A stretch of 64,000 nucleotides of DNA from an uncultured bacterium (GCA_938014335.1 CALLRP010000003.1:112614-176613), one strand, 5' to 3'; positions 10,313-53,101 are shown, counted from the stretch's first letter. Translations and numbers: made by a program. Notes: a model not told the origin generated them from the letters alone.

Positions 10313-10374
10313 AATAGTACTTTTTTATAGTTATTTGTGTCGTCATAATGAAAGAATAATAAAGGAGTATTTTT

Positions 10375-30898: not shown

Positions 30899-30902
30899 AC
30901 AA

Positions 30903-30947
30903 TCCCCCTGAAAATATAAAAAACAGAATGTAAGGGGGATTTTTTAA
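30903..30947. terminator. Bidirectional-looking terminator hairpin (aatccccct ... agggggatt) flanked by A-run and T-run
   Basis: 9-bp G/C-rich stem with a ~22-nt loop and tttttt on the + strand. The complementary A-run could serve the convergent MFS gene. Confidence 0.5.
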
Positions 30948-32365
30948 ATATCAGGACTGTCTGACTCGTCTAACCTGTCCGAGAAATCAATTCCATTATT
31001 TCTGGAAAATCCAAAACTAATAGAGAAACCTTCTAAGACAGCGGTAATTGCAGTTTTAGGATTTAAAAATTCTATGAGCGGCATTTGGGAATAATCTTTT
31101 TGTTCCTTAATGGTGACATAACACAGAACCGCTGATATAAAACACAGTATTCCACTGGCGATAAAGCATATTTGAAAGCCAGTCCACGCAAAACGGTAGA
31201 TTATTTGCCCCGCAAAGATAGGGGTTATTCCTAATGCTAATCCAGAAGTAACCGTCCACAGATTTGTATAAGGAATCCGCTGACTTTCTGGAACCATATT
31301 TAGCATCGCTCGATGGACAGATGTCCAGAATGCTGCTGAAAATATAGTAATCAAGACGATTAGAACGGGGACAAGATAATATACCCATGGGTAGCGAGGA
31401 ATAAACTCAACAAAAGGGATCACTAATAATGCATGACAGAGCAAAGCACGGAGTATGGCAGGAGAACTCCCAAATCTATCGGAGTAGCGTCCCCAGGCAG
31501 GTGCCGTCAACATGATGAATAAGCTTCCAAGTGAACTAATAGTAAGAATACTCTTTTCGGATAGTTTTAACACATCTCTCAAGTAAAGGACATAAATAGA
31601 ACTAAACCAGTTGGTAGCACTTAATGATAAGAATGCAGGGATTAGAAACAGGAGATAGGTTTTATCTTTTAATACAGGACCATAGGGACGATAAAAATCT
31701 GCCCATCGTATAGATGTCTGTCTCCCTTTTCCGCCGGGAACACGAGCCATCCAGAACAAACTTAATAATCCGCCTAATATACCCACAGCATAGATAATCA
31801 AGAATTGTCCCACTGTTGGGCTTTTCCCCAAAAAGAAACCCTGAGAAAGCAAAATAGCAACATTAACCAATTGGACGGTACCTGCTTCTGCACTGAAATA
31901 AAGGCCCCGTTGCTCATAAGGAACAACTTCATGAAGCCACGGTAGCCATCCTCCGGCACCCACCGCACGAGCCAGACAAAAACCTAATGTTAATGTAATA
32001 AGCAAAGCCCATCCTGCCTTTTCACCATACCGAGCCATGACAAAGGGCATTGCAAAAATAGGAATCATAATGAGATTTCGGATAAACCAAGTGTATAACA
32101 TAAGATTTTTAGGCCCTATGCGTGTAACAAAAGGCACCATAAAAACGGCGAGCAATGTTGTAAACGGTAGTAATGAAATAAGGATACCTACACGGTCTGC
32201 AGGCATACCAATCGTTCGGGCAAACAACACCATTGCCGGACCTACAATACACTGCCACGATATTACATTAAAGGAAGTGAACGCTAAATATTTTCGCGGT
32301 GCAGTGTTGAGTTCAATAACAGCACGGGTAATAGGAATTTTGCGGAAAAGTGACAAGAAAATCAT
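30944..32365 (-). CDS. MFS-superfamily transporter (12 TM)
   Basis: 473 aa, twelve hydrophobic segments. Co-directional and 4 nt from ltaE. Confidence 0.75.
   Translation of the reverse strand: MIFLSLFRKIPITRAVIELNTAPRKYLAFTSFNVISWQCIVGPAMVLFARTIGMPADRVGILISLLPFTTLLAVFMVPFVTRIGPKNLMLYTWFIRNLIMIPIFAMPFVMARYGEKAGWALLITLTLGFCLARAVGAGGWLPWLHEVVPYEQRGLYFSAEAGTVQLVNVAILLSQGFFLGKSPTVGQFLIIYAVGILGGLLSLFWMARVPGGKGRQTSIRWADFYRPYGPVLKDKTYLLFLIPAFLSLSATNWFSSIYVLYLRDVLKLSEKSILTISSLGSLFIMLTAPAWGRYSDRFGSSPAILRALLCHALLVIPFVEFIPRYPWVYYLVPVLIVLITIFSAAFWTSVHRAMLNMVPESQRIPYTNLWTVTSGLALGITPIFAGQIIYRFAWTGFQICFIASGILCFISAVLCYVTIKEQKDYSQMPLIEFLNPKTAITAVLEGFSISFGFSRNNGIDFSDRLDESDSPDI
30952..30988 (+). repeat. Copy C of the short conserved intergenic repeat (core GTCTAACCTGTCCGAGA)
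   Basis: Shares a 17/17 or 16/17 core with the copies at 33471-33508 (inverted) and 51101-51132. Overlaps the last codons of the MFS gene. Confidence 0.5.
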
Positions 32366-32368
32366 ATA

Positions 32369-33379
32369 TCAGTTTAACTTTGTAAAGGTCTCCAGTACAT
32401 ATTCAAATTGTGAATCTGTAATATCTCGATGAAAAACAACGCGAATGTATTTTTCATGAACCGAATTTATAAGGATATTTTTTTCGCGTAATGTTTGGGC
32501 AAACGAGTGAGCATTTTTAACATGGACAAACAAAATATTTGTTGGAGAAGGAAGTGGGAATATCCAACCTTTTTCTTCGAGAGTTCTACGGAAGAGTATA
32601 GCTCGCTCATGGTCTTTGTGTAGGTCATCTATGTGATGTTTCAGGGCATAGAGACCTGCCGCTGCAAGTACACCTGCTTGTCTCATCCCACCCCCTAATA
32701 ATTTTCGAAATTTTCGAGCCCGTTGAATAAGCTCTTTCGGCCCACAGAGGACCGATCCTGCGGGAGCACCCAGTCCTTTAGACAAACAGAAATTTATTAA
32801 ATCACAGGGTTCTGCAAGATATTTTGCCTCAATATTACAGGCAATAGCAGCATTAAAAATTCGTGCCCCATCACAATGCAATTTCATACCTAATTGACGG
32901 CAAACCCTTCCAATACGGGATACTTCTTCATAATCGTAACAGGCACCTCCACCGCGGTTTACAGTATTTTCAATAGATACTAATGTAGTGGGGGCACGAT
33001 GTATATCTGTTGCAGAATTATAGCGGACAAGAATATCCTCTTCCGAAATCTTGCCAAGTATTCCGGGGACAGTCAGGGGCAAAATATTAGCAATTCGTGT
33101 TATACCCCCTACTTCGTAGTGAATAGTATGAGCCTGTTCAGCAAGAATTACCGCATCGCCAGGATAAGTTAATGTTAGAAAAGCAACCAGGTTTGACATG
33201 GTTCCACTGGGATTAAACAGACCCGCCTCTTTTCCCATTAGTTCCGCCGCGTATTGTTCCAATTCAATAACCGTGGGGTCTTCACCATAGACATCATCTC
33301 CTACCTCCGCTCTTGCCATGGCTTCACGCATACCGGCAGAGGGCTTTGTTACTGTATCGCTACGCAAATCAACAAACAT
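32369..33379 (-). CDS. ltaE: Low-specificity L-threonine aldolase
   Basis: MFVDLRSDTVTKP N-terminus and the PLP-dependent threonine aldolase (beta-eliminating lyase) pattern throughout. Confidence 0.85.
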   Translation of the reverse strand: MFVDLRSDTVTKPSAGMREAMARAEVGDDVYGEDPTVIELEQYAAELMGKEAGLFNPSGTMSNLVAFLTLTYPGDAVILAEQAHTIHYEVGGITRIANILPLTVPGILGKISEEDILVRYNSATDIHRAPTTLVSIENTVNRGGGACYDYEEVSRIGRVCRQLGMKLHCDGARIFNAAIACNIEAKYLAEPCDLINFCLSKGLGAPAGSVLCGPKELIQRARKFRKLLGGGMRQAGVLAAAGLYALKHHIDDLHKDHERAILFRRTLEEKGWIFPLPSPTNILFVHVKNAHSFAQTLREKNILINSVHEKYIRVVFHRDITDSQFEYVLETFTKLN

Positions 33380-33470
33380 ATAAAATACTCCTGATAATTA
33401 TGGCCAGGGAAAGTTATTATCGGTTGGATATTATTATAATAAACTATAGAGGGAATATCCATCGTTATTA

Positions 33471-33508
33471 TCTCGGACAGGTTAGACAGGGCGGACAAGT
33501 CCGACAAG
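33471..33508 (-). repeat. Copy A (inverted orientation) of the conserved intergenic repeat
   Basis: Reverse complement reads cttgtcggacttgtccgccctgtctaacctgtccgaga. Lies between the GGDEF gene stop and the ltaE start. Confidence 0.5.
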
Positions 33509-33540
33509 AACATATCATTTCAGAGTAAAATTTTTGTGCC

Positions 33541-34485
33541 TTATTTTACAACGACCTGATTTCTGCCTTTATTCTTTGCCTCATAAGTTGCATCATCAAC
33601 TCGTTTAAGTACATCCGTGGGGGTTGGGTCTTCTGAGGAAATCTCTGTTACACCCGCACTGAGGGAAAGGTGGATAGAATAATTCTCATAACGAAAGGTG
33701 GTATTTTCAACTTTTGTGCGAAGTTTATCCGCTACAATTAATGCAGAATTAGAATCAATACCGGGAAGTATTAACGCAAATTCTTCACCCCCATACCGAG
33801 CAAGGAAATCGGAAACCCGTTTTTCATCATTAAGTAATGAAGCAATAGCACGAAGGATGCGGTCTCCTGCAATATGCCCATAAGTATCGTTGACTTCTTT
33901 GAAATGATCTAAATCAATCATGATAATGGAAAATTTTTGCCCATACCTTTTAAAACGCGTAAATTCTTCATTTAATCTCTTATCAAATGACGCACGATTA
34001 TTTACCTGTGTCAAGAAGTCCGTATTAACATCGCGTGATAATTTTTCTAAAATCTGCTCCTGTTCTTTTAATTTCTTTTGAGCTTCATTGAGTTGTTGTT
34101 GATAATTGTTTGTCGAGTCCTTCATTTTTTCTACTGCTTGAAGTAGCAACCTCTCTACTTGTTGAATGGTTGCTAATGTTTCCGCTTTTTTTAACTGACT
34201 TGCCTGTTCATCCAAATTATTCCCATACCTTACTGTATCGTCCAATAAATTTTGCACATGCGATTCCAGATTTTTCAACAATCCATGAACAACTAACTTC
34301 ATTTTTTCTATTTCACTTACTGCTTTTTGGTTCTCTTCGCTCTTTATTTCCGGTTGTTCAATAAATGTATTCTCCACAGAAGAGATACGGGTAGTGGCAA
34401 GTTTGCGCCATAACCATAACCATAGACCGATTACCAACGCCAGCCCCGCTACAAAAATAATAATTAAAAAAAGTTCAATATTCAT
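33541..34485 (-). CDS. Diguanylate cyclase (TM + coiled-coil + GGDEF domain)
   Basis: N-terminal TM helix, long coiled coil, and C-terminal GGDEF domain with an intact GGEEF active site (RYGGEEFALIL). Confidence 0.8.
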   Translation of the reverse strand: MNIELFLIIIFVAGLALVIGLWLWLWRKLATTRISSVENTFIEQPEIKSEENQKAVSEIEKMKLVVHGLLKNLESHVQNLLDDTVRYGNNLDEQASQLKKAETLATIQQVERLLLQAVEKMKDSTNNYQQQLNEAQKKLKEQEQILEKLSRDVNTDFLTQVNNRASFDKRLNEEFTRFKRYGQKFSIIMIDLDHFKEVNDTYGHIAGDRILRAIASLLNDEKRVSDFLARYGGEEFALILPGIDSNSALIVADKLRTKVENTTFRYENYSIHLSLSAGVTEISSEDPTPTDVLKRVDDATYEAKNKGRNQVVVK

Positions 34486-34601
34486 ATTAAATAAAATTTA
34501 ACAATACAGATTAATACATTAAAATAAATTAAATAATATATATAATTATGATAAAAGACCTCAGACTGTCCGCATATTATAAATTCAAGAATAACATGAA
34601 T

Positions 34602-36650
34602 TCAATATTCATAATTCCCACGCCAGGGAAGAAATGCAGACATACCCTCGTAGGTATGGATTTGATATAAATTCCCATCAAAGGAATATTGAATGGACAA
34701 TTCAGACATCTTATCCGATGGAATTTCAGATAAATAAGATGGGATTAAGTATTCCAGTGAAGGAGGATATGAGGCATTATCAAGAGCATACCACTCTATA
34801 GCCAGGAATAAGCGAGACATAAGCAAAGTCGCTTGTACATGTCTTTTGTGCTGTTCTTGTGCGGTGCTTGGGGGAAAAATTATTTTCCGCAAATCTTCCA
34901 GAGGGGAGGTATTTATTTCTGCAGGACTCTCTTCCGCGGGTAACTTCAAAAATTCGTTCCATCGAGATTGAATTTCATAATCAGCCACTTTGTTTAACCA
35001 TTCTTTTTCCTCTGTTTCTTGTAAGAAATTCTGTAACCCTTGCTTTAGAGCAGGAATTGTTGGAAATTCTGCTTGTGCCCAAACTGCAATTTGACGATAT
35101 TCGTTATATCTCAATGGGTATGTTTCTTTCGTCATTTTCTCCGCCCTATCAAGGATACCCATCCCTTCCCGAAACTGTTGCGGAGTTAATAAATGCAGAC
35201 GAGCCAATTCACGAAGAGCAATCCCCGCGGACTCAATAGCAAAGAAAAGAAGATGAATTAATTTCCCATATACTTGTTTTTGAATGGATTCAGCAAACTG
35301 CATAAGGCCATTAACATCTATAATTAAAGTTTCTGAAGGTTGCCTGCTGGTGAGCAGGATATTTAGGGTAAATAGTTCAAAAAAGTTCTGAAATGCTTCA
35401 ATAGAAAAAGGGGACTCTCCGGGTATCGCAGAGGAGGGAATTAATCCGCGTTCATAAGATACACCGGAACGCCAGGTCTGAAAACTTTCCTGGAAATTAG
35501 CAAAAGTAGCTATTACCTCATCAGGAATAGGATTGGCAGGACCCGCAAGTAATTGTTCCCATGTGGGCTGAAGCATCATTACATCCATAGAAGGAACCGT
35601 CTCTACCGCAAGCAAATAATAATAGAAAGCATCGGTGGGTAAAAAGTCGCGGGAAGTATAATACGGCACCTCCTTCAATTTTCGTAACTCGTCATATCGG
35701 CTATATAAAAGTTGAAAAAACTTTTTATTTAAGTCAATATTGAGGCCCTGCTTCTTATCAGGAGAGGGCGTCCCTTGTGTCTGTGTATTATCCACATGGG
35801 TAGATGGGGAAGTTTGTTGTAGGCGGTTTGTGCTTTCTTCTTTAGGGGGTAAAGGAGAAGGTGTTTCGTTTTGTATCGGTGTATTCACCAACAACGGTGT
35901 ATCATCTCGAATTTCGTCTTTTTTATTAAGAAATATTGTAAAAATAAACAGAATTGAAAGTGTAATCGTCGCCAGAAATAACGACATAAACACAGCAAGG
36001 AGTTTTTTATTCCTTTTTCTTTGAATTTTAGTTGAAGGTAATTGGGGCGATAATGTTTCCTGTAAAAAAGGAAGCACGGCATCATTTAATTGAGAGGGAC
36101 AGGGTTCATATGCATTGGTAATGAGCAATTGGTTGAGCTGAGGAACACCTATATTAATTCTTACCAGACTTAACCCTCTTCGTATATGCTCCATTCCTTT
36201 GGCAATACGCTCTTCAATCCTTTCGCGAGGCTGACGAAGATACGAGACAAGATTGGCAGGTTCTTGTCCTTCAAGAAAATGCAGAATAAGGGGATGTGAA
36301 AATTTTTCGGAAAGGTTAGCAATAAGAACATCGATCCTCTTTTTTATATCATTCCACGAAACAGGAGAGGGTATTTCCGCAGGGAACGGCAAATTTTTGA
36401 TAACTGCCATCGCTTCGCGAGTTGCCTCACGGTGCAGATATACTGCTACAGGGACAGGGGGTAGATTGTCTGATTGCATTAACTTTTTGAAACAGGATTT
36501 AGCAATTTCTAATGCATCCTGTGGGTCATTGGTCAAACGCAGAGCCACGCCATAAACCATTCCGCCATGTCGGGATACCAGTTCGGAGAAAGCCTCTATA
36601 TCCCGCTGTCGTATCCACTGGTCAAGACATTGGTCATCAGTTAATGGCAT
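34602..36650 (-). CDS. ECF-type sigma-70 domain fused through a TM helix to a ~440-aa extracytoplasmic domain (sigma/anti-sigma-like fusion)
   Basis: N-terminal sigma-70 region-2-like segment (FSELVSRHGGMVYGVALRLTNDPQDALE) and a region-4-like HTH (~130-160). Single TM (LLAVFMSLFLATITLSILFIFTIF). Long P/T-rich linker followed by a C-terminal domain with no known motif. Confidence 0.55.
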   Translation of the reverse strand: MPLTDDQCLDQWIRQRDIEAFSELVSRHGGMVYGVALRLTNDPQDALEIAKSCFKKLMQSDNLPPVPVAVYLHREATREAMAVIKNLPFPAEIPSPVSWNDIKKRIDVLIANLSEKFSHPLILHFLEGQEPANLVSYLRQPRERIEERIAKGMEHIRRGLSLVRINIGVPQLNQLLITNAYEPCPSQLNDAVLPFLQETLSPQLPSTKIQRKRNKKLLAVFMSLFLATITLSILFIFTIFLNKKDEIRDDTPLLVNTPIQNETPSPLPPKEESTNRLQQTSPSTHVDNTQTQGTPSPDKKQGLNIDLNKKFFQLLYSRYDELRKLKEVPYYTSRDFLPTDAFYYYLLAVETVPSMDVMMLQPTWEQLLAGPANPIPDEVIATFANFQESFQTWRSGVSYERGLIPSSAIPGESPFSIEAFQNFFELFTLNILLTSRQPSETLIIDVNGLMQFAESIQKQVYGKLIHLLFFAIESAGIALRELARLHLLTPQQFREGMGILDRAEKMTKETYPLRYNEYRQIAVWAQAEFPTIPALKQGLQNFLQETEEKEWLNKVADYEIQSRWNEFLKLPAEESPAEINTSPLEDLRKIIFPPSTAQEQHKRHVQATLLMSRLFLAIEWYALDNASYPPSLEYLIPSYLSEIPSDKMSELSIQYSFDGNLYQIHTYEGMSAFLPWRGNYEY

Positions 36651-36739
36651 TGTGCGTTTACACTTTCCTGCTTAATTCAAATTGCATACTTATTGTATCG
36701 CAAACTATAAAAAAACCCAAACAAGACTACATCCTTATT

Positions 36740-38740: not shown

Positions 38741-38871
38741 AATTAATCTTGAGTAACCTTAGCTTAATCATATAAATTATAAAACATATTATAGAAGGAA
38801 ACTATTTTCTAAACGACGAAGTCTTTAAAACCGTAAGCATACTTGGCATGTGAAACAGAAAGGAAGGGAAT

Positions 38872-40341: not shown

Positions 40342-40401
40342 ATTACATTAGGGACAAGGGTTCATACCTTGTCCCTATATATTATTTTATAATATCCTCA
40401 A

Positions 40402-41370: not shown

Positions 41371-41465
41371 ATAAAACCTCCTTAAAAAATATAAATTAAA
41401 ATAAAACCGATTGAAAAAGAAAAGATTGAAAATGTAGGAAAAAATAGATTTTTATTGTGAGTGGA

Positions 41466-41804
41466 TTAGACAATTAAAGGAGGAGCACGGGAAAGATCTA
41501 ACAGTATGGACGAAAAATGAAAAGGATTTTTTTGGATTTGGTCCACAATTTTGATGATGAACACAAAAGCAAATGTGATAAGCAGAAGAGCAAAGCTGTT
41601 CCATTGTAGAACAAACCAACAAATAGGACAGAATTCTTCAGAATGCCCCAATTCAGGTTCATAGCAAAGGGAATGAATATGATGATGATGTAAAAATAGA
41701 GGGAAAGAAATAGATAGAAGCAAAGATAAACCGAGAAAAGCATATAAAACGCGGAGAATATATGTTTTATTTTTCATTTCAAATGCATCTCTATAGTAAT
41801 ACAA
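41466..41804 (-). CDS. Small membrane protein with His-rich/Cys motif (LHHHHIHSLCYEPE...CPICW)
   Basis: 112 aa, two hydrophobic helices flanking an H5/Cys-containing loop. Lies upstream of the DUF1559 gene on the same strand. Confidence 0.35.
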   Translation of the reverse strand: MYYYRDAFEMKNKTYILRVLYAFLGLSLLLSISFPLFLHHHHIHSLCYEPELGHSEEFCPICWFVLQWNSFALLLITFAFVFIIKIVDQIQKNPFHFSSILLDLSRAPPLIV

Positions 41805-41939
41805 TGTAATACTAAATTATAACACTATTCTTATTCTGTTTCAAATCCTCTCTCTGGAATATACAATCCCTTGAAAAAAATTTCAAGGTACTAAATTACT
41901 TGTGCTAATATACAAAAACAATTAAAGAAAGGAAACAAC

Positions 41940-44900: not shown

Positions 44901-45467
44901 CGCTACGAAAACCAACAGAGTATAGGCTCCAATATTTTCCATCTGGGGACTACCTGGCTGGGGATTATTACATGGGACGATATTCGCTCTGTGGAGTTTT
45001 TAAAGAGTTTGCCAGAGGTGGATGGCGAACGCATCGGTGCTATTGGCCTTTCTATGGGAGCCCACCGCACTTGGATGTTGAGTGCCCTTTCAGATGATGT
45101 AAAAGCAAGTTGCGCCATATGCTGGATGGCGACTACACCCTCATTAATGGTCCCAGATAACAACCAGACCCGTGGTCAATCCGCCTATCCCCAGCTCGCT
45201 CCAAACTTATACCAATACCTCGACATCCCCGATGTTGCCAGTTTAGCCTGTCCCAAACCTATGTTATTCTTTAATGGGACAAAAGATAACCTCTTCCCCC
45301 TCGAGGGAGTAAAAGACTCATACAAAATTATGGAAAAAGTCTGGCAATCTCAGGGTAAAGCAGATAACTTATACACAAAAATTTGGGATATTCCTCATGA
45401 GTTTAACCTCGACATGCAAAAAGAAGTTTTTATCTGGCTCGATAAGTTTTTGAAGGAAAAGCATTAA
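41940..45467 (+). CDS. Large secreted protein with C-terminal alpha/beta-hydrolase (dienelactone hydrolase/acetyl-xylan-esterase-like) domain
   Basis: Signal peptide. C-terminal ~300 aa carry a GxSxG nucleophile elbow (GLSMGAHRTW), a downstream Asp and a terminal His (DIPHEF). The N-terminal ~850 aa are unassigned. Confidence 0.6.
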   Translation: MKYTEKYLYCLAFSLFVCCSTVSIGDEIEKQKELWSQKFQFEQVVSGEIPPKYKSSDEEFKFTIKVEKPSRQFIRVSIPFPYGKMKETKKVVLQSHGTEILADCRVVTTHGGGEGFVRRAILSFVDDFNEKSKQYTVLHSINDDEEKHNDSPLQIGGNTFAFDGKQLLISQQNEQPLKISLICPDEENSINEMNREIIEQGNHYLWVRWLQWDTSYPKIVELRANSVGQFAVRVSLQRWAKEDGYAPEFGLNIEGDGKLSKIIENSITQLHEPYNHEWIDGKDISFKTETGKNVCFPDAGAWRKGALHAETTPNGWKITYLRSRDEDKVPHQPMAWRTASLYIGPSDMPVWNELLEPPIAFSVTMSLWKSTYRCEEIPYPENEILQKIVDWHRNAMAGARLYGDDFGNVSTMPVNSVFGMNRLNHNTEIFYESLRTANPEIRKTFLLWCQNYTQLSIWWGDLDKPTFGGTRYNNIRGRDPKIHGEDNSFMWRSNDSVTFCTKGIENLLFAYEETGDPFYACGLRAQIEYAKENVHANTGECRNIGCAKDFMVLYHALGKQEYAQHALRLFQELREKLCDNNLFSQGGQPLKEQVPFIQNDLTGYNNPFPKPYILGYALQGLPSLYKEVPDEPRLYETIEAVAKFIAESGDPVGGWRYPHPRSPLIFIGQGIEHAYQLALAGSILEGKSPYFDSLLDRIETVLQARIAGLLRSNCVLDRIGPWEYATGKFAPDKNLEEVYKTFDERDYSRDYTEGNISCTDVLPPEGVVFFASVLNYYLKHRKAEQILNISNPELRTVIMRIPISKSETNIETGKNCSIEKTLPKFTANWLKNYTPVLRYEKSKFSNFDEWKKEGRKKVFECMGYPPPFTFFNPEWITEEDRGSYTARKLVLNISEWERIPAYLLVPKGTPPFPAIVCLHDHGAHFSIGKEKVIRPIAESNEVLKDAEDWVKLYYGGRFIGDELAKQGYVVLSIDALFWGARQECGGSRYENQQSIGSNIFHLGTTWLGIITWDDIRSVEFLKSLPEVDGERIGAIGLSMGAHRTWMLSALSDDVKASCAICWMATTPSLMVPDNNQTRGQSAYPQLAPNLYQYLDIPDVASLACPKPMLFFNGTKDNLFPLEGVKDSYKIMEKVWQSQGKADNLYTKIWDIPHEFNLDMQKEVFIWLDKFLKEKH

Positions 45468-45554
45468 TATGCTCTAAAAAATAAAGCGATACCCCCTAAA
45501 GAAAAAATGGAATTATACGGATTGCCTACTTTTACTATTACTTTATTTACTTTA

Positions 45555-46043
45555 TTATTTGTTAAGTAGTCGTTCGCGGAGTTTCTGCTCAATTCGGGAT
45601 GAAACATAATGGGACACACTGCCACCGAAACGAACAATTTCTTTTACCTGTCGTGAACTTAAAAACAAGTAGGGTTCGCTGGGCATAAGACAAACCGTAT
45701 CAATACTGGGGTCTAATTTTTGGTTGTTTATAGCCAAACTTAATTCAAATTCGAAATCAGAAACGACCCGTAATCCACGGATAAGAGCCTGTGCCCCACA
45801 TTTTTTAGCAAATTCTACAGACAATCCAATAAAACTTGTAACCTCAATATCTGGAGTGCTATTTAATTCCTCTTCTAACATTTGAATTCTTTCTTCCACA
45901 GTAAACAAAGCGGCCTTTGCTTCGTTAATAGCCACTGCCACAATAACACGGTCAAAAATACGACGGGCACGATAAATTAAATCGATATGTCCTAAGGTGG
46001 GAGGGTCAAAACTACCAGGGTATAATGCAATCCGTTCCGACAT
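45555..46043 (-). CDS. coaD: Phosphopantetheine adenylyltransferase
   Basis: ALYPGSFDPPTLGHIDLI (H/T-x-G-H nucleotidyltransferase motif). 162 aa. Confidence 0.92.
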   Translation of the reverse strand: MSERIALYPGSFDPPTLGHIDLIYRARRIFDRVIVAVAINEAKAALFTVEERIQMLEEELNSTPDIEVTSFIGLSVEFAKKCGAQALIRGLRVVSDFEFELSLAINNQKLDPSIDTVCLMPSEPYLFLSSRQVKEIVRFGGSVSHYVSSRIEQKLRERLLNK

Positions 46044-46267
46044 AATAAAAATCCCTAATCATTTATTTTTTGAGATAACTTTTTGATTTGACTAACATTA
46101 TGCCAAAAGAGTTTTCAAGAAAAAAAATTGTTAAGTTTCCCTACCTGGAAAGATAAATATAACCCTGGAACAGATTATACAAACATACCTATAAAAATAG
46201 TTGAAAGAACTACCCTATTTATAATATAATCCTTTTCCATTATTTTTTCAAGGAGTTCCCCCTTAAA

Positions 46268-46726
46268 ATGGCTATTGAGCGGACTTTTGTTATGATAAAA
46301 CCGGATGGTGTCGCTCGTCGGCTTGTCGGCGAGTGCATCCGTCGTTTAGAAAAACGCGGTTTGAAATTGATAGCAATAAAAATGCAAATTTTGACCCGTG
46401 AAAAGGCAGAAGAACATTATCAAGAGCATAAGGGAAAAGACTTCTTTGAAAGTTTAGTCGGTTTTATCTGCTCAGGACCCACAGTTCAGATGGTCTGGGA
46501 AGGTGAAGACGCTATTCAGCAGGTTCGTAGTATGATTGGCACTACAAATCCATTAAAATCCCCTCCCGGAACTATCCGTGGAGACTTTGCACTCATAACA
46601 CAGATGAATATTGTCCATGCATCCGATAAGCCCGAATCCGCAGAGCGGGAAATATCGCTTTATTTCACGCCACAGGATATATTAGAATATAAAGCAGACG
46701 ATGAAAAATGGTTAACAAGTAAGTAA
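46268..46726 (+). CDS. ndk: Nucleoside diphosphate kinase
   Basis: [12 protein letters not shown]; active-site NIVHASD region. 152 aa. Confidence 0.92.
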
Positions 46727-46776
46727 AAGGGACATAACCTTTAATCAAATAAAAACTTAACAAAAGGAGTATTTTC

Positions 46777-46869
46777 GTGGCAGGTGGAAGAAAAGTTCGT
46801 AAACGCAAGATTAATAAGCATAAGCGTAAGAAGAAGAGACGCTTGAATCGTCATAAGAATAAAAAATAA
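46777..46869 (+). CDS. Unannotated 30-codon, extremely basic peptide (VAGGRKVRKRKINKHKRKKKRRLNRHKNKK), candidate bS22-like ribosomal protein
   Basis: GTG start 6 nt after an aaaaggag RBS. 24 of 30 residues are K/R/H. A strong hairpin terminator lies immediately downstream. Composition and length resemble ribosomal protein bS22 of Actinobacteria and Bacteroidetes ([20 protein letters not shown] type). Confidence 0.45.
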   Translation: MAGGRKVRKRKINKHKRKKKRRLNRHKNKK

Positions 46870-46883
46870 GATGACCATAGCCA

Positions 46884-46928
46884 CCCTATCCGGGAAAGGT
46901 CTGTTCCTTTCCCGGTATAGGGATATTT
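46884..46928 (+). terminator. Rho-independent terminator after the ndk/small-basic-ORF unit
   Basis: Long imperfect stem ccctatccgggaaagg / cctttcccggtataggg with a 6-nt loop, followed by an atattt U-rich tail. Confidence 0.55.
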
Positions 46929-46965
46929 AAATGGTTATTAAAACACTTTATAAGGGAGAACGGAT

Positions 46966-47403
46966 GTGAGTGACGAAGAAAAGAAAATCATTATTGACGA
47001 AGACTGGAAATCAAAAGTTCAGAAAGAGAAAGAGGAACTTCAAAAGAAGTTAGAAGAAGAAAAAGCCAAAAAGCCCGAAGGTGAAGAAACTTCTCCAGAA
47101 GAGCCGATTACTCCCTCATTTGAAACTATCGTAGGCATTCTAACAACAGATGCTATGCTGGCATTAGGTGTAATTGCCCCACCGGAAAGCCAACAAGTCA
47201 TTATTGATTTAGAACAGGCACAGTTTTTTATTGATTTGTTAACCATACTACGCGATAAGACCAAAGGCAATCTCTCTCCACAAGAAGAAGGTGTCCTTAC
47301 TAATTCTATTGCACAATTGCAAGAAATTTATGTAGTACGCCATCAACAATATCAAGAAGCACAACTACGACAAGCAGGAATAAAACCCACACCGGGACAA
47401 TAG
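46966..47403 (+). CDS. DUF1844-family acidic protein
   Basis: Acidic/K-rich N-terminus, conserved hydrophobic core (SFETIVGILTTDAMLALGVI), and C-terminal LLTILRDKTKGNLSPQEEGVL motif characteristic of DUF1844. Confidence 0.55.
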   Translation: MSDEEKKIIIDEDWKSKVQKEKEELQKKLEEEKAKKPEGEETSPEEPITPSFETIVGILTTDAMLALGVIAPPESQQVIIDLEQAQFFIDLLTILRDKTKGNLSPQEEGVLTNSIAQLQEIYVVRHQQYQEAQLRQAGIKPTPGQ

Positions 47404-47683
47404 CCCCTAAAGTTTTTATTCGGTTTCTTACCTATATCAGGAGTTTCATAGTAACAGAGATTTCTTTTGGATAAAATTTTCGTCATTCAACTAAAAATAA
47501 CCTTTCACCTCCCTATCATAAAAAAACCTATTTTCGAAGCATGAACTTGTAGTATTGAACATGGATACTCAATTATGATAATTTAAATTAAACAAATATT
47601 TTCCTTTTTGATATATCCGGAAAACAGGGTGTAGAAGTATGGGATATTTTTTTAATTTAATAAACGACATTCAGGGTTAAACA

Positions 47684-48472
47684 ATGACACAAGGAGGTAA
47701 TATCTCAGAAACAACACATAAATCGGTATTAGTAGTTATCCCTGCCCGTTATGGTTCAACCCGTTTCCCCGGAAAGATGCTTGTCAACTTATGTGGTTAT
47801 CCATTAGTGTATCATGTATACCTCCAGGCAAAGAAAGCAAGATGTGTTGGAGAAGTATTAGTAGCAACAGATGATGTGCGGATTCAGTCTGCGTTGGAAC
47901 CATTAGGAGTGCCCGTGGTAATGACACGGGCAGACCATGCGAGTGGAACCGACCGCATCGCAGAAGTAGCAGAAAAAAGGTCTGAAGAAATTATTGTTAA
48001 TGTTCAAGGCGATGAACCCTTACTCCCACCGGAATGCATTGATGCTACAGTAAAACCCTTATTAGAAGATACGCAAATTCAAATGTCAACTGCATGTCGT
48101 AATATCACAGACCCTTCCTGGATAGAAAATCCAAATGTGGTCAAGGTAATTACAAATCAGAAAGGACATGCTCTATATTTTTCTCGTTCCCCTATTCCCT
48201 ATATACGCGATGCAGAACAACGACAAAATATTGTGGGAATATACTGGCAACATATTGGTCTTTATGTCTATCGTCGCGCATTTTTACTTCATATTTCGAA
48301 ATTACCACAAACGCCTTTGGAAAAATTAGAAAAATTAGAACAACTCCGAGTGCTTGAAAACGGTTATTCTATTGCAGTGGTCCCAACTAATTATGAAGCG
48401 TTGGGAGTAGATACACCAGAAGATTTAATCCACGTAGAAAAAATTCTTAAATCAAGAGCAAAGGAAGTATAG
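47684..48472 (+). CDS. kdsB: 3-deoxy-manno-octulosonate cytidylyltransferase (CMP-Kdo synthetase)
   Basis: VVIPARYGSTRFPGKML and GTDRIAEV motifs. 262 aa. Adjacent to pyrG. Confidence 0.85.
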   Translation: MTQGGNISETTHKSVLVVIPARYGSTRFPGKMLVNLCGYPLVYHVYLQAKKARCVGEVLVATDDVRIQSALEPLGVPVVMTRADHASGTDRIAEVAEKRSEEIIVNVQGDEPLLPPECIDATVKPLLEDTQIQMSTACRNITDPSWIENPNVVKVITNQKGHALYFSRSPIPYIRDAEQRQNIVGIYWQHIGLYVYRRAFLLHISKLPQTPLEKLEKLEQLRVLENGYSIAVVPTNYEALGVDTPEDLIHVEKILKSRAKEV

Positions 48473-50137
48473 ATGGCTAATACAAAACCACCCTTGAAAT
48501 ATATCTTTACCACAGGCGGTGTTGTTTCTTCTATTGGGAAAGGAATTGCCTGTGCCAGTTTAGGATTGCTTTTAGAATCTCGAGGTTATAAAATTGCCAT
48601 TATGAAAATGGACCCCTACATTAATGTGGACCCAGGCACAATGAATCCCTTTGAGCATGGAGAAGTATTTGTCACCGATGATGGTGCGGAAACAGACCTT
48701 GACTTAGGCCATTATCAACGGTTTACTCATGCTAAATTGTCACGTAGAAGCAACACAACGACAGGGGCTATCTATAACACCGTAATTCAAAAGGAGCGTG
48801 ACGGTGCCTATTTAGGGAAAACCGTTCAAGTGATACCGCATATTACCGATGAGATAAAAAATCGTATTCGCGCATTGACCGTAGATGAAGATGATGTGGA
48901 CATTGCCATAATCGAAATTGGTGGGACTGTCGGTGATATTGAAAGCCTTCCTTTCCTTGAAGCATTGCGACAGTTTCGATTAGAGGTAGGTCCCGAAAAT
49001 TGCTGTTTTATTCATGTTACCTTAGTCCCCTACATCGAAGCGGCAAATGAATTGAAAACGAAGCCTACACAACATAGTGTCCGTGCTTTGCGTGATATTG
49101 GTATCCAACCCAATATTATCATCTGTCGAACAGGTGTAAGCAAACTTGAAAAAGAACAAAGACAAAAAGTAGCGTTATTCTGCGACGTGGCAGAAGAAGC
49201 CATTATTAATGCGCAGGATATTTCCCCCATTTATGCCATTCCTCTTAATTTCAAAGAGCAAAATCTGGATGTTACTGTATTAAAAATATTGGGTCTGGAA
49301 GTGCGAGAAGGGAACCTATCCGAATGGATTAATATAGTGAACCGACTGGTTTCTGCCACCGAAGAAGTATGTATTGCGGCAGTGGGGAAATACACCGGAC
49401 ATGGGGATGCATATAAAAGTATTAATGAAGCATTTGTTCATGCGGGTATCGCCAATAATTGCAAAGTAAAATATGAATGGATTGACTCAGAACGATTTGA
49501 TCCAGGGAAAGAAAAGCCAGAAGATGTTCTGAAAGGATACCATGGAATTTTGATAGGACCCGGTTTTGGGACTCGTGGGATTGAAGGGAAAATCAATGTA
49601 GCGCGATTCGCTCGAGAAAATGGCATACCCTATTTCGGTATATGTTTAGGCATGCAGGTAGCCGTCATTGAGATGGCTCGGAATTGCTTAGGGCTAAAGG
49701 AGGCTCATACCACAGAGGTAAATCCACAAACTCCACATCCTGTAATTTCACTCCTCACAGAACAAAAAGGAATTTCCTCGAAAGGGGGTACGATGCGTTT
49801 AGGAGCCTATCCCTGTGAATTACAGCCCAATACACTCGCTTATCAAGCATATGCACAAACGCTGATTTATGAACGACATCGACACCGCTATGAGTTTAAT
49901 AATGCTTACCGTGAAGATTTCGAGAAAAAGGCCGGTATGATTATAAGCGGGATACATCGGCGGAAATTCATGGACATGGAAGAAGAACTTACGGAAGTGA
50001 TAGAGCTCAAAACAGATCGCCATCCGTGGTTCTGTGCTTGTCAGTTCCACCCTGAATTTAAGAGTACACCTCTAAAACCACAACCGCTTTTCTGTGCCTT
50101 TATAAAGTCTGCTCTTAAATACAAAAAAGTGAAATGA
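48473..50137 (+). CDS. pyrG: CTP synthase
   Basis: N-terminal synthetase domain (KYIFTTGGVVSSIGKG) and C-terminal class-I glutamine amidotransferase triad (GICLGMQ ... HPEF). 554 aa. Confidence 0.95.
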   Translation: MANTKPPLKYIFTTGGVVSSIGKGIACASLGLLLESRGYKIAIMKMDPYINVDPGTMNPFEHGEVFVTDDGAETDLDLGHYQRFTHAKLSRRSNTTTGAIYNTVIQKERDGAYLGKTVQVIPHITDEIKNRIRALTVDEDDVDIAIIEIGGTVGDIESLPFLEALRQFRLEVGPENCCFIHVTLVPYIEAANELKTKPTQHSVRALRDIGIQPNIIICRTGVSKLEKEQRQKVALFCDVAEEAIINAQDISPIYAIPLNFKEQNLDVTVLKILGLEVREGNLSEWINIVNRLVSATEEVCIAAVGKYTGHGDAYKSINEAFVHAGIANNCKVKYEWIDSERFDPGKEKPEDVLKGYHGILIGPGFGTRGIEGKINVARFARENGIPYFGICLGMQVAVIEMARNCLGLKEAHTTEVNPQTPHPVISLLTEQKGISSKGGTMRLGAYPCELQPNTLAYQAYAQTLIYERHRHRYEFNNAYREDFEKKAGMIISGIHRRKFMDMEEELTEVIELKTDRHPWFCACQFHPEFKSTPLKPQPLFCAFIKSALKYKKVK

Positions 50138-51090
50138 ACGAAATCGAACCTACACAAGAAACTCTTATATGGATTTGTAAAAACGCTGAACAAGCATGGC
50201 AAGAGGGGGATCCCAAAAAACTCCAATTCTGGGAAAACCAAAAAAAAGAATTTCAACAAAAATGCTACCAACGAATGGAAAGCCTTGTTAAACAAAAGGC
50301 TCTATTACAACAACAACAAGAGATTTTACTACAAAAAGTTCAAAACGGGGAATATACAGCGGAATATGCAAATCAAATTAATCGACAAATTTATGAACAT
50401 AGTGAAGAATTAAATCGGCAAATACACTGTTACAGGAAACTTCTTGAATATCCAACAGCTGAAATCAATTCTGTCGAACCCAATACGGATAATATTACAA
50501 ACAACTCCCCAACCCCTGAAATCCCTTTTCAAAATGTCATCCCTATTGAACAATATTTCTACGGATTATTCATGTCTGCCATACGGGCTATATTTTTAAG
50601 CAATATCGGACAGATAACAATATGTTTCATTATACTTGTTATTGCCGTTTATCTTACATGGACCTGGAATACACGGAATCAACAACCTCAATTCGAATAT
50701 ATTTCCGTTCCTGCAGAAAACAAACATATAATTCGTATTCATAATCGAGGCATGCTGACTACAAAAATCTACCTCTCCCAACAAAACCGATGGGAGTTGG
50801 CACCTTATCTTTATTTGCTTGAATGCTCTGCGGAAACAGTTTCCCCACAGCAAAAGAAAAGGGCGCAAATTCCATTGAACTGTTTCTTTCTGGAAAATGA
50901 GATTCATTCCCCTATTAATTCGACCTATCTCGAGATACCCCCCGGCTCGAAAAAAGGTTTTGGAGTAGATACTCAATGTATTCAACAAAATCTCAACGAT
51001 ATTACAAAAATAACTATTACAATCCGCAAACTCATTTTCCATACAAAAACTTTAGAATTCAATATTGATATTCCCAAAAGTCCGACATAA
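50134..51090 (+). CDS. Hypothetical protein with N-terminal coiled-coil and one TM helix, translationally coupled to pyrG
   Basis: Start ATG overlaps the pyrG stop (ATGA). Q/E-rich coiled coil, then TM (ITICFIILVIAVYLTW), then a ~150-aa C-terminal domain. No known motif. Confidence 0.45.
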   Translation: MNEIEPTQETLIWICKNAEQAWQEGDPKKLQFWENQKKEFQQKCYQRMESLVKQKALLQQQQEILLQKVQNGEYTAEYANQINRQIYEHSEELNRQIHCYRKLLEYPTAEINSVEPNTDNITNNSPTPEIPFQNVIPIEQYFYGLFMSAIRAIFLSNIGQITICFIILVIAVYLTWTWNTRNQQPQFEYISVPAENKHIIRIHNRGMLTTKIYLSQQNRWELAPYLYLLECSAETVSPQQKKRAQIPLNCFFLENEIHSPINSTYLEIPPGSKKGFGVDTQCIQQNLNDITKITITIRKLIFHTKTLEFNIDIPKSPT

Positions 51091-51100
51091 AAGATGATAT

Positions 51101-51132
51101 AGATTCTGACATGTCTAACCTGTCTGACAATT
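51101..51132 (+). repeat. Copy B of the conserved intergenic repeat (core GTCTAACCTGTCTGACA)
   Basis: agattctgacatgtctaacctgtctgacaat between convergent genes. Contains the palindromes gacatgtc and tgtctgaca. Confidence 0.5.
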
Positions 51133-53024: not shown

Positions 53025-53101
53025 TGGCGCGCCCGGCGGGATTTGAACCCACGGCCCCTTGCTCCGGAGGCAAGTGCTCTATCCAACTGAGCTACAGGCG
53101 C
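53025..53101 (-). tRNA. tRNA-Arg (anticodon CCG)
   Basis: Reverse complement folds as a 77-nt cloverleaf: acceptor GCGCCTG/CGGGCGC, D-arm GCTC-AGTTGGATA-GAGC, anticodon arm CTTGC-CTCCGGA-GCAAG, T-arm GTGGG-TTCAAAT-CCCGC, encoded CCA. It matches E. coli tRNA-Arg(CCG) closely in the acceptor, anticodon and T arms. Confidence 0.9.

What the first reader, a model, noticed from the sequence alone, without database searches (positions are those of the whole stretch)
30952..51132. Three-copy conserved ~35-bp intergenic element (core GTCTAACCTGTC[C/T]GA[G/C]A)
Reading the intergenic regions, the same 17-nt core appears in three places. Copies are at 30968-30984 (+), 33471-33489 (inverted) and 51113-51129 (+). 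Each copy has flanking near-palindromic words of the CTGTCTGAC / GTCCGACA / CGGACAAGTCCG type. A 17-mer is not expected to recur by chance in 64 kb. All copies lie just outside stop or start codons, next to terminator hairpins. Copies A and C bracket the ltaE-MFS operon. Copy B lies between convergent genes (ORF 50134 and the HD-GYP gene). This looks like a REP/MITE-like small repeat, or the operator of a TGTC-N-GACA-binding regulator, specific to this genome.
Basis: seen in the sequence. Interest (0 to 1): 0.55.

Follow-up and report, generated by a model that had tools for sequence, protein, structure and literature searches.

The report
Dispersed arrays of 9-bp GTCNGAC repeats
The three "copies" are real. 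Each is a short run of 9-bp repeats built on the mini-palindrome GTCNGAC, and they belong to a fast-changing repeat family at gene ends in this Hydrogenedentes bacterium and its close relatives; its role is unproven.

Summary
The 17-nt core is present exactly where reported, at 30968-84 (+), 33471-87 (-) and 51113-29 (+). None of 100 shuffles gave three matches. Each copy is really 3-4 head-to-tail 9-bp units: a 7-bp interrupted palindrome GTCNGAC plus a 2-nt spacer.

A and B, not A and C, bracket ltaE-MFS as inverted 27-nt arms. C lies between the convergent 318-aa and HD-GYP genes. A sits inside the last 13 codons of the MFS gene.

The organism is a Candidatus Hydrogenedentes MAG. Sister species carry arrays at the same B and C sites but not at A, which is a ~35-40-bp gain that rewrote the MFS C-terminus. 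Between orthologous arrays the GTC/GAC skeleton is kept (31/36 positions) while N and spacer positions change (7/18 kept; p=0.001). Non-orthologous copies resemble each other more than orthologous ones do, which points to copying or concerted evolution.

None of the copies folds better than shuffled sequence. There is no TIR, no Rfam hit and no linked transposase.

Best reading (0.42): a dynamic REP-like dispersed tandem-repeat family, possibly read by a heptad-binding protein. It is not genome-specific, not a hairpin REP or MITE, and not shown to be an operator.

The parts
30950..30985 (+). Array A. A degenerate unit ATCAGGACT, then GTCTGAC-TC-GTCTAAC-CT-GTCCGAG-AA. It lies inside the 3' end of the MFS ORF on the opposite strand.
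   Evidence: It is absent from the same site in relatives L216 and L348.
33471..33507 (-). Array B, four units read on the - strand: GTCGGAC-TT-GTCCGCC-CT-GTCTAAC-CT-GTCCGAG-AT. It starts 36 nt after the GGDEF stop codon and ends 10 nt upstream of a promoter-like -35.
   Evidence: An orthologous array is present in L216, L217 and L218.
51080..51130 (+). Array C. A first unit GTCCGAC overlaps the last codons of the 318-aa ORF. After a 17-nt gap come TTCTGAC-AT-GTCTAAC-CT-GTCTGAC-AA.
   Evidence: An orthologous array is present in L222.
30944..32365 (-). MFS transporter gene. Its last 13 codons (...FSDRLDESDSPDI*) are supplied by array A, read in the x-Ser-Asp frame.
   Evidence: Pfam MFS_1. Frame analysis. 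The C-terminal alignment with homologues shows the tail is lineage-specific.
32369..33379 (-). Threonine-aldolase-type gene (ltaE, Beta_elim_lyase). It is the first gene of the pair bracketed by arrays B and A.
   Evidence: The ltaE-MFS pair is conserved in relatives.
33433..33461 (-). Sigma-70-like promoter candidate TGGATA-17-TATAAT upstream of ltaE. The TTTATTATAATAA block is conserved in relatives with or without the array.
   Evidence: 10 of 12 matches. Alignments.
30902..30945 (+). Hairpin plus T-run: ATCCCCC, a 25-nt loop, GGGGGAT, then TTTTT. It lies after the 134-aa ORF and is conserved in relative L216. It is separate from array A.
   Evidence: Read directly from the sequence. Conserved in the alignment.
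33541..34485 (-). GGDEF diguanylate cyclase gene, whose stop codon precedes array B.
50134..51090 (+). 318-aa ORF with no Pfam family, whose last codons overlap the first unit of array C.
   Evidence: Homologues are found only in Candidatus Hydrogenedens-type MAGs.
51158..52885 (-). FHA-GAF-HD-GYP gene, convergent on array C. Its stop codon lies 28 nt beyond the array.

Best explanation
The three copies belong to a lineage-restricted family of short dispersed tandem repeats, here called 'heptad arrays'. Each array has 2-5 contiguous 9-bp units. Each unit is the interrupted palindrome GTCNGAC plus a 2-nt spacer.

The arrays lie in the short spacers at gene ends in one subclade of Candidatus Hydrogenedens. 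They occasionally overprint the last codons of a gene.

Shown:
- Arrays are gained and lost between close relatives.
- Copies at unrelated loci share more sequence than orthologous copies do.
- Change is concentrated in the N and spacer positions, while the GTC/GAC skeleton and the 9-bp register persist.
- The arrays do not form significant hairpins.

Inferred mechanism:
- Every unit is both a direct repeat of its neighbours and, apart from N, its own reverse complement. Any unit can therefore pair with any other unit, in either orientation, within an array or between arrays.
- This favours slippage, template switching and short-patch conversion. Those processes would add, remove and overwrite units, and occasionally seed a new array. 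Copy A looks like such a case: a ~35-40-bp insertion flanked by TGAT.
- On this view the family is REP-like in where it sits and how it turns over, but it has no hairpin and no dedicated transposase in evidence.
- The persistence of the skeleton would come from this homogenisation, from recognition of each heptad by a dimeric sequence-specific protein, or from both. If such a protein exists, the arrays would act as cooperative multi-site binding arrays. B and one array in a sister genome lie at about -45 to -80 of sigma-70-like promoters.
For: Anatomy and non-randomness.

Gain and loss:
- A is absent from L216 and L348, and the MFS C-terminus differs accordingly.
- B is present in L216/217/218 but absent from L348.
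- C is present in L222 but not recognisable in L349, L350 or L225.
- L223 has a 2-unit array where the window and L222 have ~60 nt of unrelated sequence.
- A fourth array of the same genome lies just outside the window between convergent genes (L351:1651-1693).

Skeleton against free positions in orthologous arrays: 31/36 against 7/18 identical, Fisher p=0.001.

Copying or concerted evolution: winA, winB, winC and L025 (a GTDB MAG from the ERZ1744544 assembly that also yielded sister-species contig L217, non-orthologous locus) are 19-22 of 25 identical. The orthologous pairs are only 16-18 of 25 identical.

Hypervariability: 3 of the 11 differences between L216 and L218 over 11.9 kb fall in one array unit.

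No hairpin. No known RNA family. No terminator-like site at the arrays. No mobile-element genes found among the window genes that were scanned or named in syntenic loci.

Analogous GTCNGAC arrays in other lineages: 15 of the 28 hits in GTDB genomes lie in arrays. Some sit at the centre of MITE-like or other lineage-specific dispersed repeats next to housekeeping genes.
Against: - No copying mechanism was observed directly. The TGAT flanks of A may be chance.
- Only about 68 kb of this genome could be read, so copy number and genome-wide distribution are unknown.
- The excess conservation of the skeleton is also what plain purifying selection on a functional binding site would give. The orthologous persistence of B and C across species (85-88% identity of the neighbouring proteins) is unusual for junk.
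- The sample is small: two orthologous pairs and seven independent loci.
- Similar arrays in other phyla may be convergent or unrelated. The generic 9-bp pattern also picks up coding repeats, and a control pattern gave 65 viral hits against more than 120.
Confidence: 0.42

Rival explanations
1. Operator or architectural binding array. Each GTCNGAC heptad is the site of a dimeric DNA-binding protein, for example a GntR/FadR-like winged helix or a ribbon-helix-helix protein. Contiguous heptads would be bound cooperatively to regulate ltaE-MFS and other genes or to organise DNA. B and A might loop out the operon.
For: - The skeleton is conserved and the free positions vary in orthologous arrays.
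- B keeps its position between GGDEF and ltaE in two species, ending 10-15 nt upstream of a conserved promoter-like -35/-10.
- L223:6059 lies similarly upstream of the NDK promoter-like TTGAAA-N18-TATAAT.
- GTCnGAC is the core of the FadR and LldR operators: aaCTGGTCnGACC(T/A)Gtt and AAnTGGTCnGACCAnTT (PMC9329746, PMC10272880).
- Contiguous short repeats bound cooperatively are known, such as the omega/ParB heptads of pSM19035 (PMC9499535).
Against: - A and C (window) and L351 in this genome, and L025 in a related MAG, lie at the junction of convergent genes, away from any recognisable promoter.
- The arrays are dispensable in close relatives whose promoters are intact.
- No DNA-binding regulator gene was found among the window genes that were scanned or named in syntenic loci; about ten ORFs in the window were not scanned.
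- Sharing of free positions between non-orthologous copies is not expected for independent binding sites.
- A 17-bp FadR-type footprint cannot fit on every unit at 9-bp spacing.
Confidence: 0.22
2. Neutral slippage-prone microsatellite-like DNA, or relics of coding x-Ser-Asp repeats. In this view 9-bp units (NNG-TCN-GAC) arise in or next to coding ends and expand by slippage. They would have no trans-acting partner and no function.
For: - Arrays that lie inside long ORFs are read as x-S-D. This holds for all 5 GTDB/window cases with more than 230 upstream codons and for 25 of 41 internal or C-terminal metagenome cases.
- A is itself translated as ...FSDRLDESDSPDI.
- Many viral hits to the generic pattern are coding repeats, and a control 9-bp pattern is also common.
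Against: - B and C are open in no long frame, and the short ORFs are not conserved in the orthologues.
- Adjacent units differ at N and spacer positions, unlike fresh slippage products.
- The same 15-19-nt string occurs at three unlinked loci, plus one in a sister species, so it cannot arise independently.
- Position 1 (G), which would be a third codon position, is conserved.
Confidence: 0.15
3. RNA-level element: a terminator, a 3'-UTR stabiliser as proposed for REPs, or the target of a multimeric RNA-binding protein that reads GUC/GAC triplets (TRAP-like).
For: - The position is right after stop codons.
- Within the Hydrogenedentes arrays the spacers are mostly pyrimidines (CT, TT, TC) on the strand of the upstream gene.
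- Long arrays in other phyla fold strongly: L020 z=-5.9 and L014 z=-4.3.
- A two-unit array in L223 is a textbook terminator hairpin.
Against: - The window and sister arrays fold no better than shuffles. The pairing partners are not kept between orthologues.
- No T-run or terminator-like call is present at the arrays.
- A is antisense to its host transcript while B is sense.
- In other lineages the polarity relative to flanking genes is mixed: about 3 co-oriented cases against 3 antisense, by inspection.
- There is no Rfam match.
Confidence: 0.08
4. Classical non-autonomous transposable element: a REP mobilised by a RAYT, or a MITE.
For: - Intergenic location and insertion polymorphism.
- A relative (L350) encodes a Y1_Tnp/RAYT-like gene.
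- In other organisms GTCNGAC arrays sit at the centre of ~140-bp palindromic MITE-like elements.
Against: - There is no stem-loop, no GTAG tag and no TIR inside a copy.
- The RAYT-like gene of L350 is flanked by a different, classical REP (GTAGGGGCGACCGGCCGGTCGCCCC), which is absent from the window.
- Transposases are not enriched next to non-coding arrays.
Confidence: 0.08

Closest known systems
REP / BIME elements (repetitive extragenic palindromes, mobilised by RAYT Y1 transposases)
   Same: Both are ~35-bp dispersed repeats in intergenic DNA, often between convergent genes. Both can persist at orthologous sites yet look more like other copies in the same genome. Occasional intragenic copies are known for REPs (PMC3733652).
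   Different: REPs are single imperfect palindromes that fold into a stem-loop and carry a GTAG or CGTC tag (PMC3733652, PMC3333891). These arrays are tandem nonamers without a significant hairpin and without a tag. The classical REP/RAYT pair seen in relative L350 is a different sequence.
MITEs and modular repeats with a variable central module (for example pneumococcal BOX elements; recalled from my own knowledge)
   Same: Both are small, non-coding and dispersed, and the number of internal units varies. In other metagenomic lineages GTCNGAC arrays do form the variable centre of ~140-bp palindromic MITE-like elements.
   Different: The window copies have no terminal inverted repeats, no conserved flanking modules and no consistent target-site duplication.
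Contiguous short-repeat protein-binding arrays: omega/ParB heptads of pSM19035; MetJ met-boxes (own knowledge); StbA stbDRs of R388
   Same: All are runs of 2-10 very short repeats, each a dimer binding site, in direct or inverted order, where the number of contiguous units matters (PMC9499535, PMC3098194). The pattern here of a conserved skeleton with free positions fits that logic.
   Different: Those arrays have a known cognate protein and lie at promoters or centromeres of one replicon. Their periods are 7 bp (omega), 8 bp (MetJ) and 11 bp (StbA: a 9-bp repeat plus 2 nt). Here the period is 9 bp, the sites are scattered on a chromosome mostly away from promoters, and no binding protein is known.
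FadR / LldR (GntR-family) operators
   Same: They share the core GTCnGAC. With a CT spacer the 3' half (GACCTG) matches the FadR consensus aaCTGGTCnGACC(T/A)Gtt (PMC9329746, PMC10272880).
   Different: Those operators are single 17-bp palindromes overlapping promoters. Here the 5' flank is CTGTC rather than CTGGTC, the units overlap at 9-bp spacing, and no GntR gene was found among the window genes that were scanned or named in syntenic loci.
Tandem repeats that straddle gene ends and create disordered protein tails (described for Borg elements of Methanoperedens; own knowledge). Also Rickettsia palindromic elements inserted in frame (mentioned in PMC3733652).
   Same: The repeat length is a multiple of three, the repeats occur both between genes and inside gene termini, and the translated copies give Ser/Asp-rich tails.
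   Different: Borg repeats are locus-specific perfect repeats. Here the same unit skeleton, and even the same 15-19-mer, recurs at unlinked loci and in a sister species.

Membership tests
REP (repetitive extragenic palindrome) | Each copy is a 20-40-bp imperfect palindrome that folds into a stable stem-loop | tested here: not met
   The RNA folds of A, B and C on both strands give z = +0.57 to -1.78. None is better than all shuffles. The sister-species arrays behave likewise.
REP (repetitive extragenic palindrome) | An unpaired GTAG (or CGTC) tag at one end | tested here: not met
   No copy contains GTAG. CGTC occurs only by accident of the spacer in A (TCGTCTAAC). Feature definition taken from PMC3733652.
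REP (repetitive extragenic palindrome) | Association with a RAYT (Y1 transposase) gene flanked by the same repeats | tested here: inconclusive
   No Y1_Tnp was found among the window genes that were scanned or named in syntenic loci. Relative L350 has a faint Y1_Tnp gene, but it is flanked by a different classical REP that is absent from the window. The rest of the genome could not be read.
MITE | Terminal inverted repeats and target-site duplication around a 50-500-bp unit | tested here: not met
   There is no TIR within a copy. Flanks are unrelated beyond ~35 nt. Only A has a possible 4-bp direct repeat (TGAT), seen by comparing filled and empty sites.
Intrinsic terminator | A G+C-rich hairpin followed by a T-run | tested here: not met
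   The scan finds no terminator-like site at A, B or C. The hairpin at 30902-30945 next to A is a separate feature that is conserved where the array is absent.
Tandem operator array (omega / MetJ type) | Contiguous short repeats, each with dyad symmetry, with conserved contact positions and free positions between them | tested here: met
   There are 3-4 contiguous units of GTC-N-GAC in a strict 9-bp register. The skeleton is kept at 31/36 positions against 7/18 free positions in orthologues.
Tandem operator array (omega / MetJ type) | A cognate DNA-binding protein, and a location at the regulated promoter | not testable with these tools
   No binding data are available. Only B lies near a promoter-like site, and upstream of it. 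A and C lie at the junction of convergent genes.
FadR/LldR-type GntR operator | A 17-bp palindrome aaCTGGTCnGACC(T/A)Gtt overlapping a promoter | tested here: not met
   Only the 7-bp core and, with CT spacers, the 3' half match. The 5' half reads CTGTC. Consensus taken from PMC9329746 and PMC10272880.
Coding tandem repeat (x-Ser-Asp) | The array lies in an open frame of a real gene | tested here: inconclusive
   Met for A, which forms the MFS tail FSDRLDESDSPDI*. Not met for B and C, where the longest open frame through the array is 86 codons in B and 81 codons in C (VRQ-type frames); the x-S-D frames are open for only about 35-55 codons, and none is conserved.
Known RNA family (Rfam 15) | A covariance-model match | tested here: not met
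   At gathering thresholds only a tRNA is found in the window. Nothing credible appears in 30500-34000 at E<=10.
Segmental duplication | Similarity extends into the flanks | tested here: not met
   In the alignment of the three copies with ~50-70 nt flanks on each side, only the ~27-35-nt core is conserved.

The most novel reading that the evidence does not exclude
GTCNGAC heptads in a 9-bp register may be a previously undescribed class of non-coding element found in many bacterial phyla. On this reading they are arrays whose skeleton is kept while the free positions turn over rapidly. They would be read by an as yet unknown, widely distributed heptad-binding protein, or copied by a hairpin-independent and transposase-independent mechanism. 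They would be repeatedly co-opted as the core of lineage-specific dispersed repeats and as Ser/Asp-rich protein tails.
Probability: 0.15. Interest if true: 0.7.

Novelty: new variant of a known kind. Interest (0 to 1): 0.42.

Why it matters
If the reading holds, small dispersed repeats in bacteria need not be hairpins (REPs) or TIR-bounded (MITEs). A run of self-complementary nonamers would be able to persist, move and be homogenised on its own, and to rewrite gene termini. Here it did so for the C-terminus of an MFS transporter.

If instead the conserved skeleton reflects protein binding, the arrays mark a regulon or an architectural system in Hydrogenedentes, an uncultured phylum for which I know of no described regulatory sites.

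For annotation, such arrays explain lineage-specific C-terminal tails and hypervariable intergenic spots in MAGs.

Tried and rejected
1. Segmental duplication: rejected, because the flanks are unrelated.
2. Conserved hairpin or terminator: rejected for the window copies and the sister arrays.
3. Known RNA family: none found. The sub-threshold miRNA-precursor 'hits' in other loci only reflect long hairpins.
4. BLAST of a long array against annotated phages and plasmids: no match, probably because of the low-complexity filter.
5. Literature string searches for 12-mers of the array returned only primers. 'GTCNGAC' returned only FadR/LldR operator papers.
6. The generic pattern GTCNGACNN x3 in viral contigs gave more than 120 loci. 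Most are coding repeats (Gly-Pro-Thr collagen-like or x-Ser-Asp), and a control pattern GACNGTCNN x3 gave 65. The generic pattern is therefore not evidence of one family. The window-type 20-mer has no viral hit.
7. Small ORFs starting in the arrays (for example MSNLSDNFQ... at C) are not conserved in the orthologue. Read-through of the upstream stop is excluded by further stops or by frame.
8. Integron attC: GTCTAAC does fit RYYYAAC, but there is no partner core site at attC distance.
9. Footprints of a transposon with 9-bp target duplications: considered, but adjacent units are not identical and no transposase is nearby.
10. Consistent polarity relative to transcription: not upheld outside Hydrogenedentes, and contradicted by A.
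11. Enrichment of a particular neighbouring gene family next to non-coding arrays: none found.
12. Penultimate position of GTCTAAC in arrays of other phyla: only a weak excess (8 of 13 against ~4.8 expected, counted by hand), so dropped.
13. Extending the window's own contig: only 4.3 kb was gained on one side, and the other look-up failed.

Full report
**1. The observation**

The 17-nt core GTCTAACCTGTCYGASA is present at 30968-30984 (+), 33471-33487 (-) and 51113-51129 (+). The chance expectation is 0.26 matches even allowing three mismatches, and none of 100 dinucleotide-preserving shuffles reached three.

Each copy is a run of head-to-tail 9-bp units. Each unit is a 7-bp interrupted palindrome GTCNGAC plus two spacer bases.
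- A: (ATCAGGACT) GTCTGAC-TC-GTCTAAC-CT-GTCCGAG-AA.
- B, on the minus strand: GTCGGAC-TT-GTCCGCC-CT-GTCTAAC-CT-GTCCGAG-AT.
- C: GTCCGAC, 17 nt, then TTCTGAC-AT-GTCTAAC-CT-GTCTGAC-AA.

A scan for three units in register scoring at least 15 of 18 finds only these three loci, against a mean of 0.01 in shuffles. Single heptads are not enriched: 17 observed against 15.8 expected. What is special is therefore the array, not the word. Beyond about 35 nt the flanks are unrelated, which excludes a segmental duplication.

**2.

- A and B, not A and C, bracket the ltaE (32369-33379) and MFS (30944-32365) genes. They form inverted 27-nt arms with 85% match.
- C lies between the convergent 318-aa ORF and the FHA-GAF-HD-GYP gene.
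- A is not outside a stop codon. It occupies the last 13 codons of the MFS ORF, which therefore ends ...FSDRLDESDSPDI*.
- Only A is next to a hairpin plus T-run (30902-30945). No terminator-like site is called at any array.
- B ends 10 nt upstream of the best promoter-like site in the region, TGGATA-17-TATAAT in front of ltaE.

**3. Organism and surroundings**

Homologues of the MFS and 318-aa proteins are named Candidatus Hydrogenedens or Hydrogenedentes by their sources. The window is ordinary chromosomal DNA. It encodes UvrB, RecG, CTP synthase, NDK, DapB, LptF/G, ribosomal protein L28 and others. No transposase, integrase or obvious regulator was found among the genes that were scanned or named in syntenic loci; about ten ORFs were not scanned.

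**4. Comparison with relatives**

This is the most informative evidence.

- A syntenic sister species (L216/L217/L218; MFS 88% identical) has an array at the B position, 6 nt after the GGDEF stop: GTCAGAC-GC-GTCGGAT-CT-GTCGGAC-CT. It has no array at the A position. There the MFS gene ends ...NGINKN*, and the neighbouring hairpin is conserved.
- Another relative (L222; 318-aa protein 85% identical, same convergent HD-GYP gene) has an array at the C position: TTCAGAC-TT-GTCCGAC-TT-GTCAGAT.
- Other relatives lack recognisable arrays at these sites. These are L348 (86%), L349 (84%, perhaps a decayed remnant), L219, L225, L347 and L350.
- L223, on the same contig as L216, has a two-unit array upstream of the NDK promoter-like site where the window and L222 have about 60 nt of unrelated sequence. 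It also has a two-unit hairpin terminator after another gene.
- A fourth array of the window's own genome lies about 3 kb beyond the left end of the window, again between convergent genes. It lacks the 17-mer (L351:1651-1693).

Arrays therefore occur about once per 15-20 kb in one subclade, and none was seen in about 80 kb from four other Hydrogenedens lineages.

**5. How the arrays evolve**

- Between orthologous arrays the six skeleton positions per unit are identical at 31 of 36 sites. The three free positions (N plus two spacer bases) are identical at only 7 of 18 (Fisher p=0.001).
- Within one species (L216 against L218), 3 of the 11 differences in 11.9 kb fall inside or immediately before the first array unit (one flanking base, the central N, one spacer base); none touches the skeleton.
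- The non-orthologous copies A, B and C, and L025 (a GTDB MAG from assembly ERZ1744544, which also yielded sister-species contig L217), are 19-22 of 25 identical to each other, including at free positions. B and C are only 16 and 18 of 25 identical to their own orthologues.

This combination is not what independently decaying insertions would show, nor what independently evolving binding sites would show. It indicates copying between loci, either as new insertion (A) or by overwriting of existing arrays (B, C), on top of rapid unit turnover.

**6. What it is not**

- None of the Hydrogenedentes arrays folds better than shuffled sequence on either strand, and the potential pairing partners are not kept between orthologues. 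The hairpin that defines REPs, and the terminator idea, both fail.
- There are no terminal inverted repeats inside a copy.
- There is no Rfam family.
- The classical RAYT-like gene with GTAG-tagged REPs found in relative L350 involves a different sequence, which is absent from the window.
- B and C are not coding. The frames through them are short and the small ORFs are not conserved.

**7. Beyond this lineage**

A scan of one genome per GTDB species for GMCNNGTCTAACCTGTCYGA gave 28 hits. Fifteen of them lie in arrays of 3-12 GTCNGAC units in very different phyla. Many are in the short spacer right after a stop codon or between convergent genes.

Caution is needed with these wider results.
- The generic three-unit pattern is dominated in viral contigs by coding repeats: GGT-CCG-ACN (Gly-Pro-Thr) and NNG-TCN-GAC (x-Ser-Asp).
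- A control pattern of the same composition is also frequent, with 65 loci against more than 120.
- Arrays inside real ORFs are read as x-Ser-Asp far more often than one in three.

Clearly non-coding arrays do exist in low-GC metagenome contigs. There they form the variable centre of lineage-specific dispersed repeats. One is a ~140-bp palindromic MITE-like element. Two other families have conserved flanks and lie next to housekeeping genes, with no enrichment of transposases. Whether these are related to the Hydrogenedentes family or are convergent cannot be decided here.

**8. Mechanism**

*Shown:* the anatomy, the gain and loss, the copying signal, the contrast between skeleton and free positions, and the lack of structure.

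*Inferred:* each unit is both a direct repeat of its neighbours and, apart from N, its own reverse complement. Any unit can therefore pair with any other in either orientation. That favours slippage, template switching and short-patch conversion within and between arrays. It would explain four features: unit-number variation, clustered changes, inverted copies such as A against B, and maintenance of the skeleton by homogenisation.

I take this 'dynamic dispersed tandem repeat' reading as most likely (0.42). It is REP-like in where the arrays sit and how they turn over, but it has no hairpin and no dedicated enzyme in evidence.

The main rival (0.22) is that the heptads are binding sites of a dimeric protein and the arrays act as cooperative operator or architectural sites. 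The conserved skeleton, the conserved placement of B at about -45 to -80 of the ltaE promoter-like site, and the identity of GTCnGAC with the core of FadR/LldR operators (PMC9329746, PMC10272880) speak for it. The convergent-gene locations, the dispensability in close relatives and the sharing of free positions between unlinked copies speak against it as the whole story. The two readings are not exclusive, since REPs also bind host proteins.

The pure slippage or coding-relic reading, the RNA-level reading and the classical REP/MITE reading are less likely, for the reasons given under the rival explanations.

**9. Comparison with known systems and novelty**

In location and turnover the family resembles REP/BIME elements. 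It fails two of the three defining features that could be tested, the stem-loop and the tag (the RAYT link was inconclusive). In architecture it resembles contiguous short-repeat binding arrays, such as the omega heptads (PMC9499535), MetJ boxes (own knowledge) and, less closely, StbA repeats (PMC3098194). It lacks a known protein and a promoter or centromere context.

I therefore file it as a new variant of a known kind (small dispersed intergenic repeats), not as a member of REP, MITE or any operator family.

**10. Verdict**

Interest is 0.42. The finding would be more interesting if a genome-wide scan and binding assays showed a conserved heptad-reading protein or a new copying mechanism.

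Noticed in passing
L350:700-1880 (relative of the window organism): A 177-aa gene with a faint Y1_Tnp (IS200/RAYT-like) hit is flanked on both sides by classical GTAG-tagged REPs (TGTAGGGGCGACCGGCCGGTCGCCCC). This looks like a typical REP/RAYT unit in a Hydrogenedens MAG. That REP is absent from the window.
   Followed up: partly
L258:4680-4830 and 10250-10410; also L278, L291, L317, L337, L339, L344, L235, L244, L334: A ~140-bp palindromic MITE-like element in low-GC (0.34-0.41) metagenome contigs. Its arms read AGGAATGCTCGAAAAATAACTTCCCCATT...AATGGGGAAATTATTTTCAGAGCATTCCT. Its centre is a GTCNGAC array of 4-8 units, with purine spacers on the left half and pyrimidine spacers on the right.
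   Followed up: partly
L238, L249, L251, L335 (two copies): An intergenic repeat family with a conserved left flank (GGAGTTAAGCCAAATG...GTTAGGCTAATAGGATAA), a variable GTCNGAC-TT array ending in GTCCGAAAG, and a right flank of CTAGAA repeats. It lies next to AcrB/HlyD, GH20, sialidase and RNR genes.
   Followed up: partly
L092:8210-8345 and the related phage contigs L098, L107, L115, L121, L129, L139: Two inverted triplets of TTGTCCGAC face each other across a ~67-bp A+T-rich spacer, and single TTGTCCAAC words lie nearby. This looks like an origin or operator region of a phage group.
   Followed up: no
L223:15373-15400: AAAAGTCGGAATCGTCCGACTTTTT is a two-unit array that is also a textbook bidirectional terminator hairpin (z=-3.1). 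It shows how two adjacent heptads with complementary central bases make a 6-bp stem with a 4-nt loop.
   Followed up: partly
L219-L221 and L347 compared with window 30944-33379: The ltaE-MFS gene pair is conserved as a unit but sits in different neighbourhoods in more distant Hydrogenedens relatives. In one it lies next to a Type ISP restriction enzyme and an NYN/YacP gene; in another it lies between ferredoxin and radical-SAM genes.
   Followed up: no
window 34602-36650 (-): A 682-aa protein has only a weak Sigma70_r2 match at its N-terminus (E=9e-4, below the cut-off). It is conserved upstream of the GGDEF gene in relatives and is otherwise unannotated.
   Followed up: no
window 53028-53101 (-): A tRNA gene, the only Rfam match in the window at gathering thresholds.
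   Followed up: no
L349 (GCA_964387125.1): The CTP synthase and HD-GYP genes are split into several ORFs, which suggests a frameshift-rich assembly. Its apparently 'decayed' array at the C position should be read with that in mind.
   Followed up: no
Viral contigs L031-L150: Many hits to GTCNGACNN x3 are collagen-like Gly-Pro-Thr repeats (GGT CCG ACN) or x-Ser-Asp repeats inside long phage ORFs. Some phage proteins end in PSDPSDPSDKSEV-type tails.
   Followed up: partly
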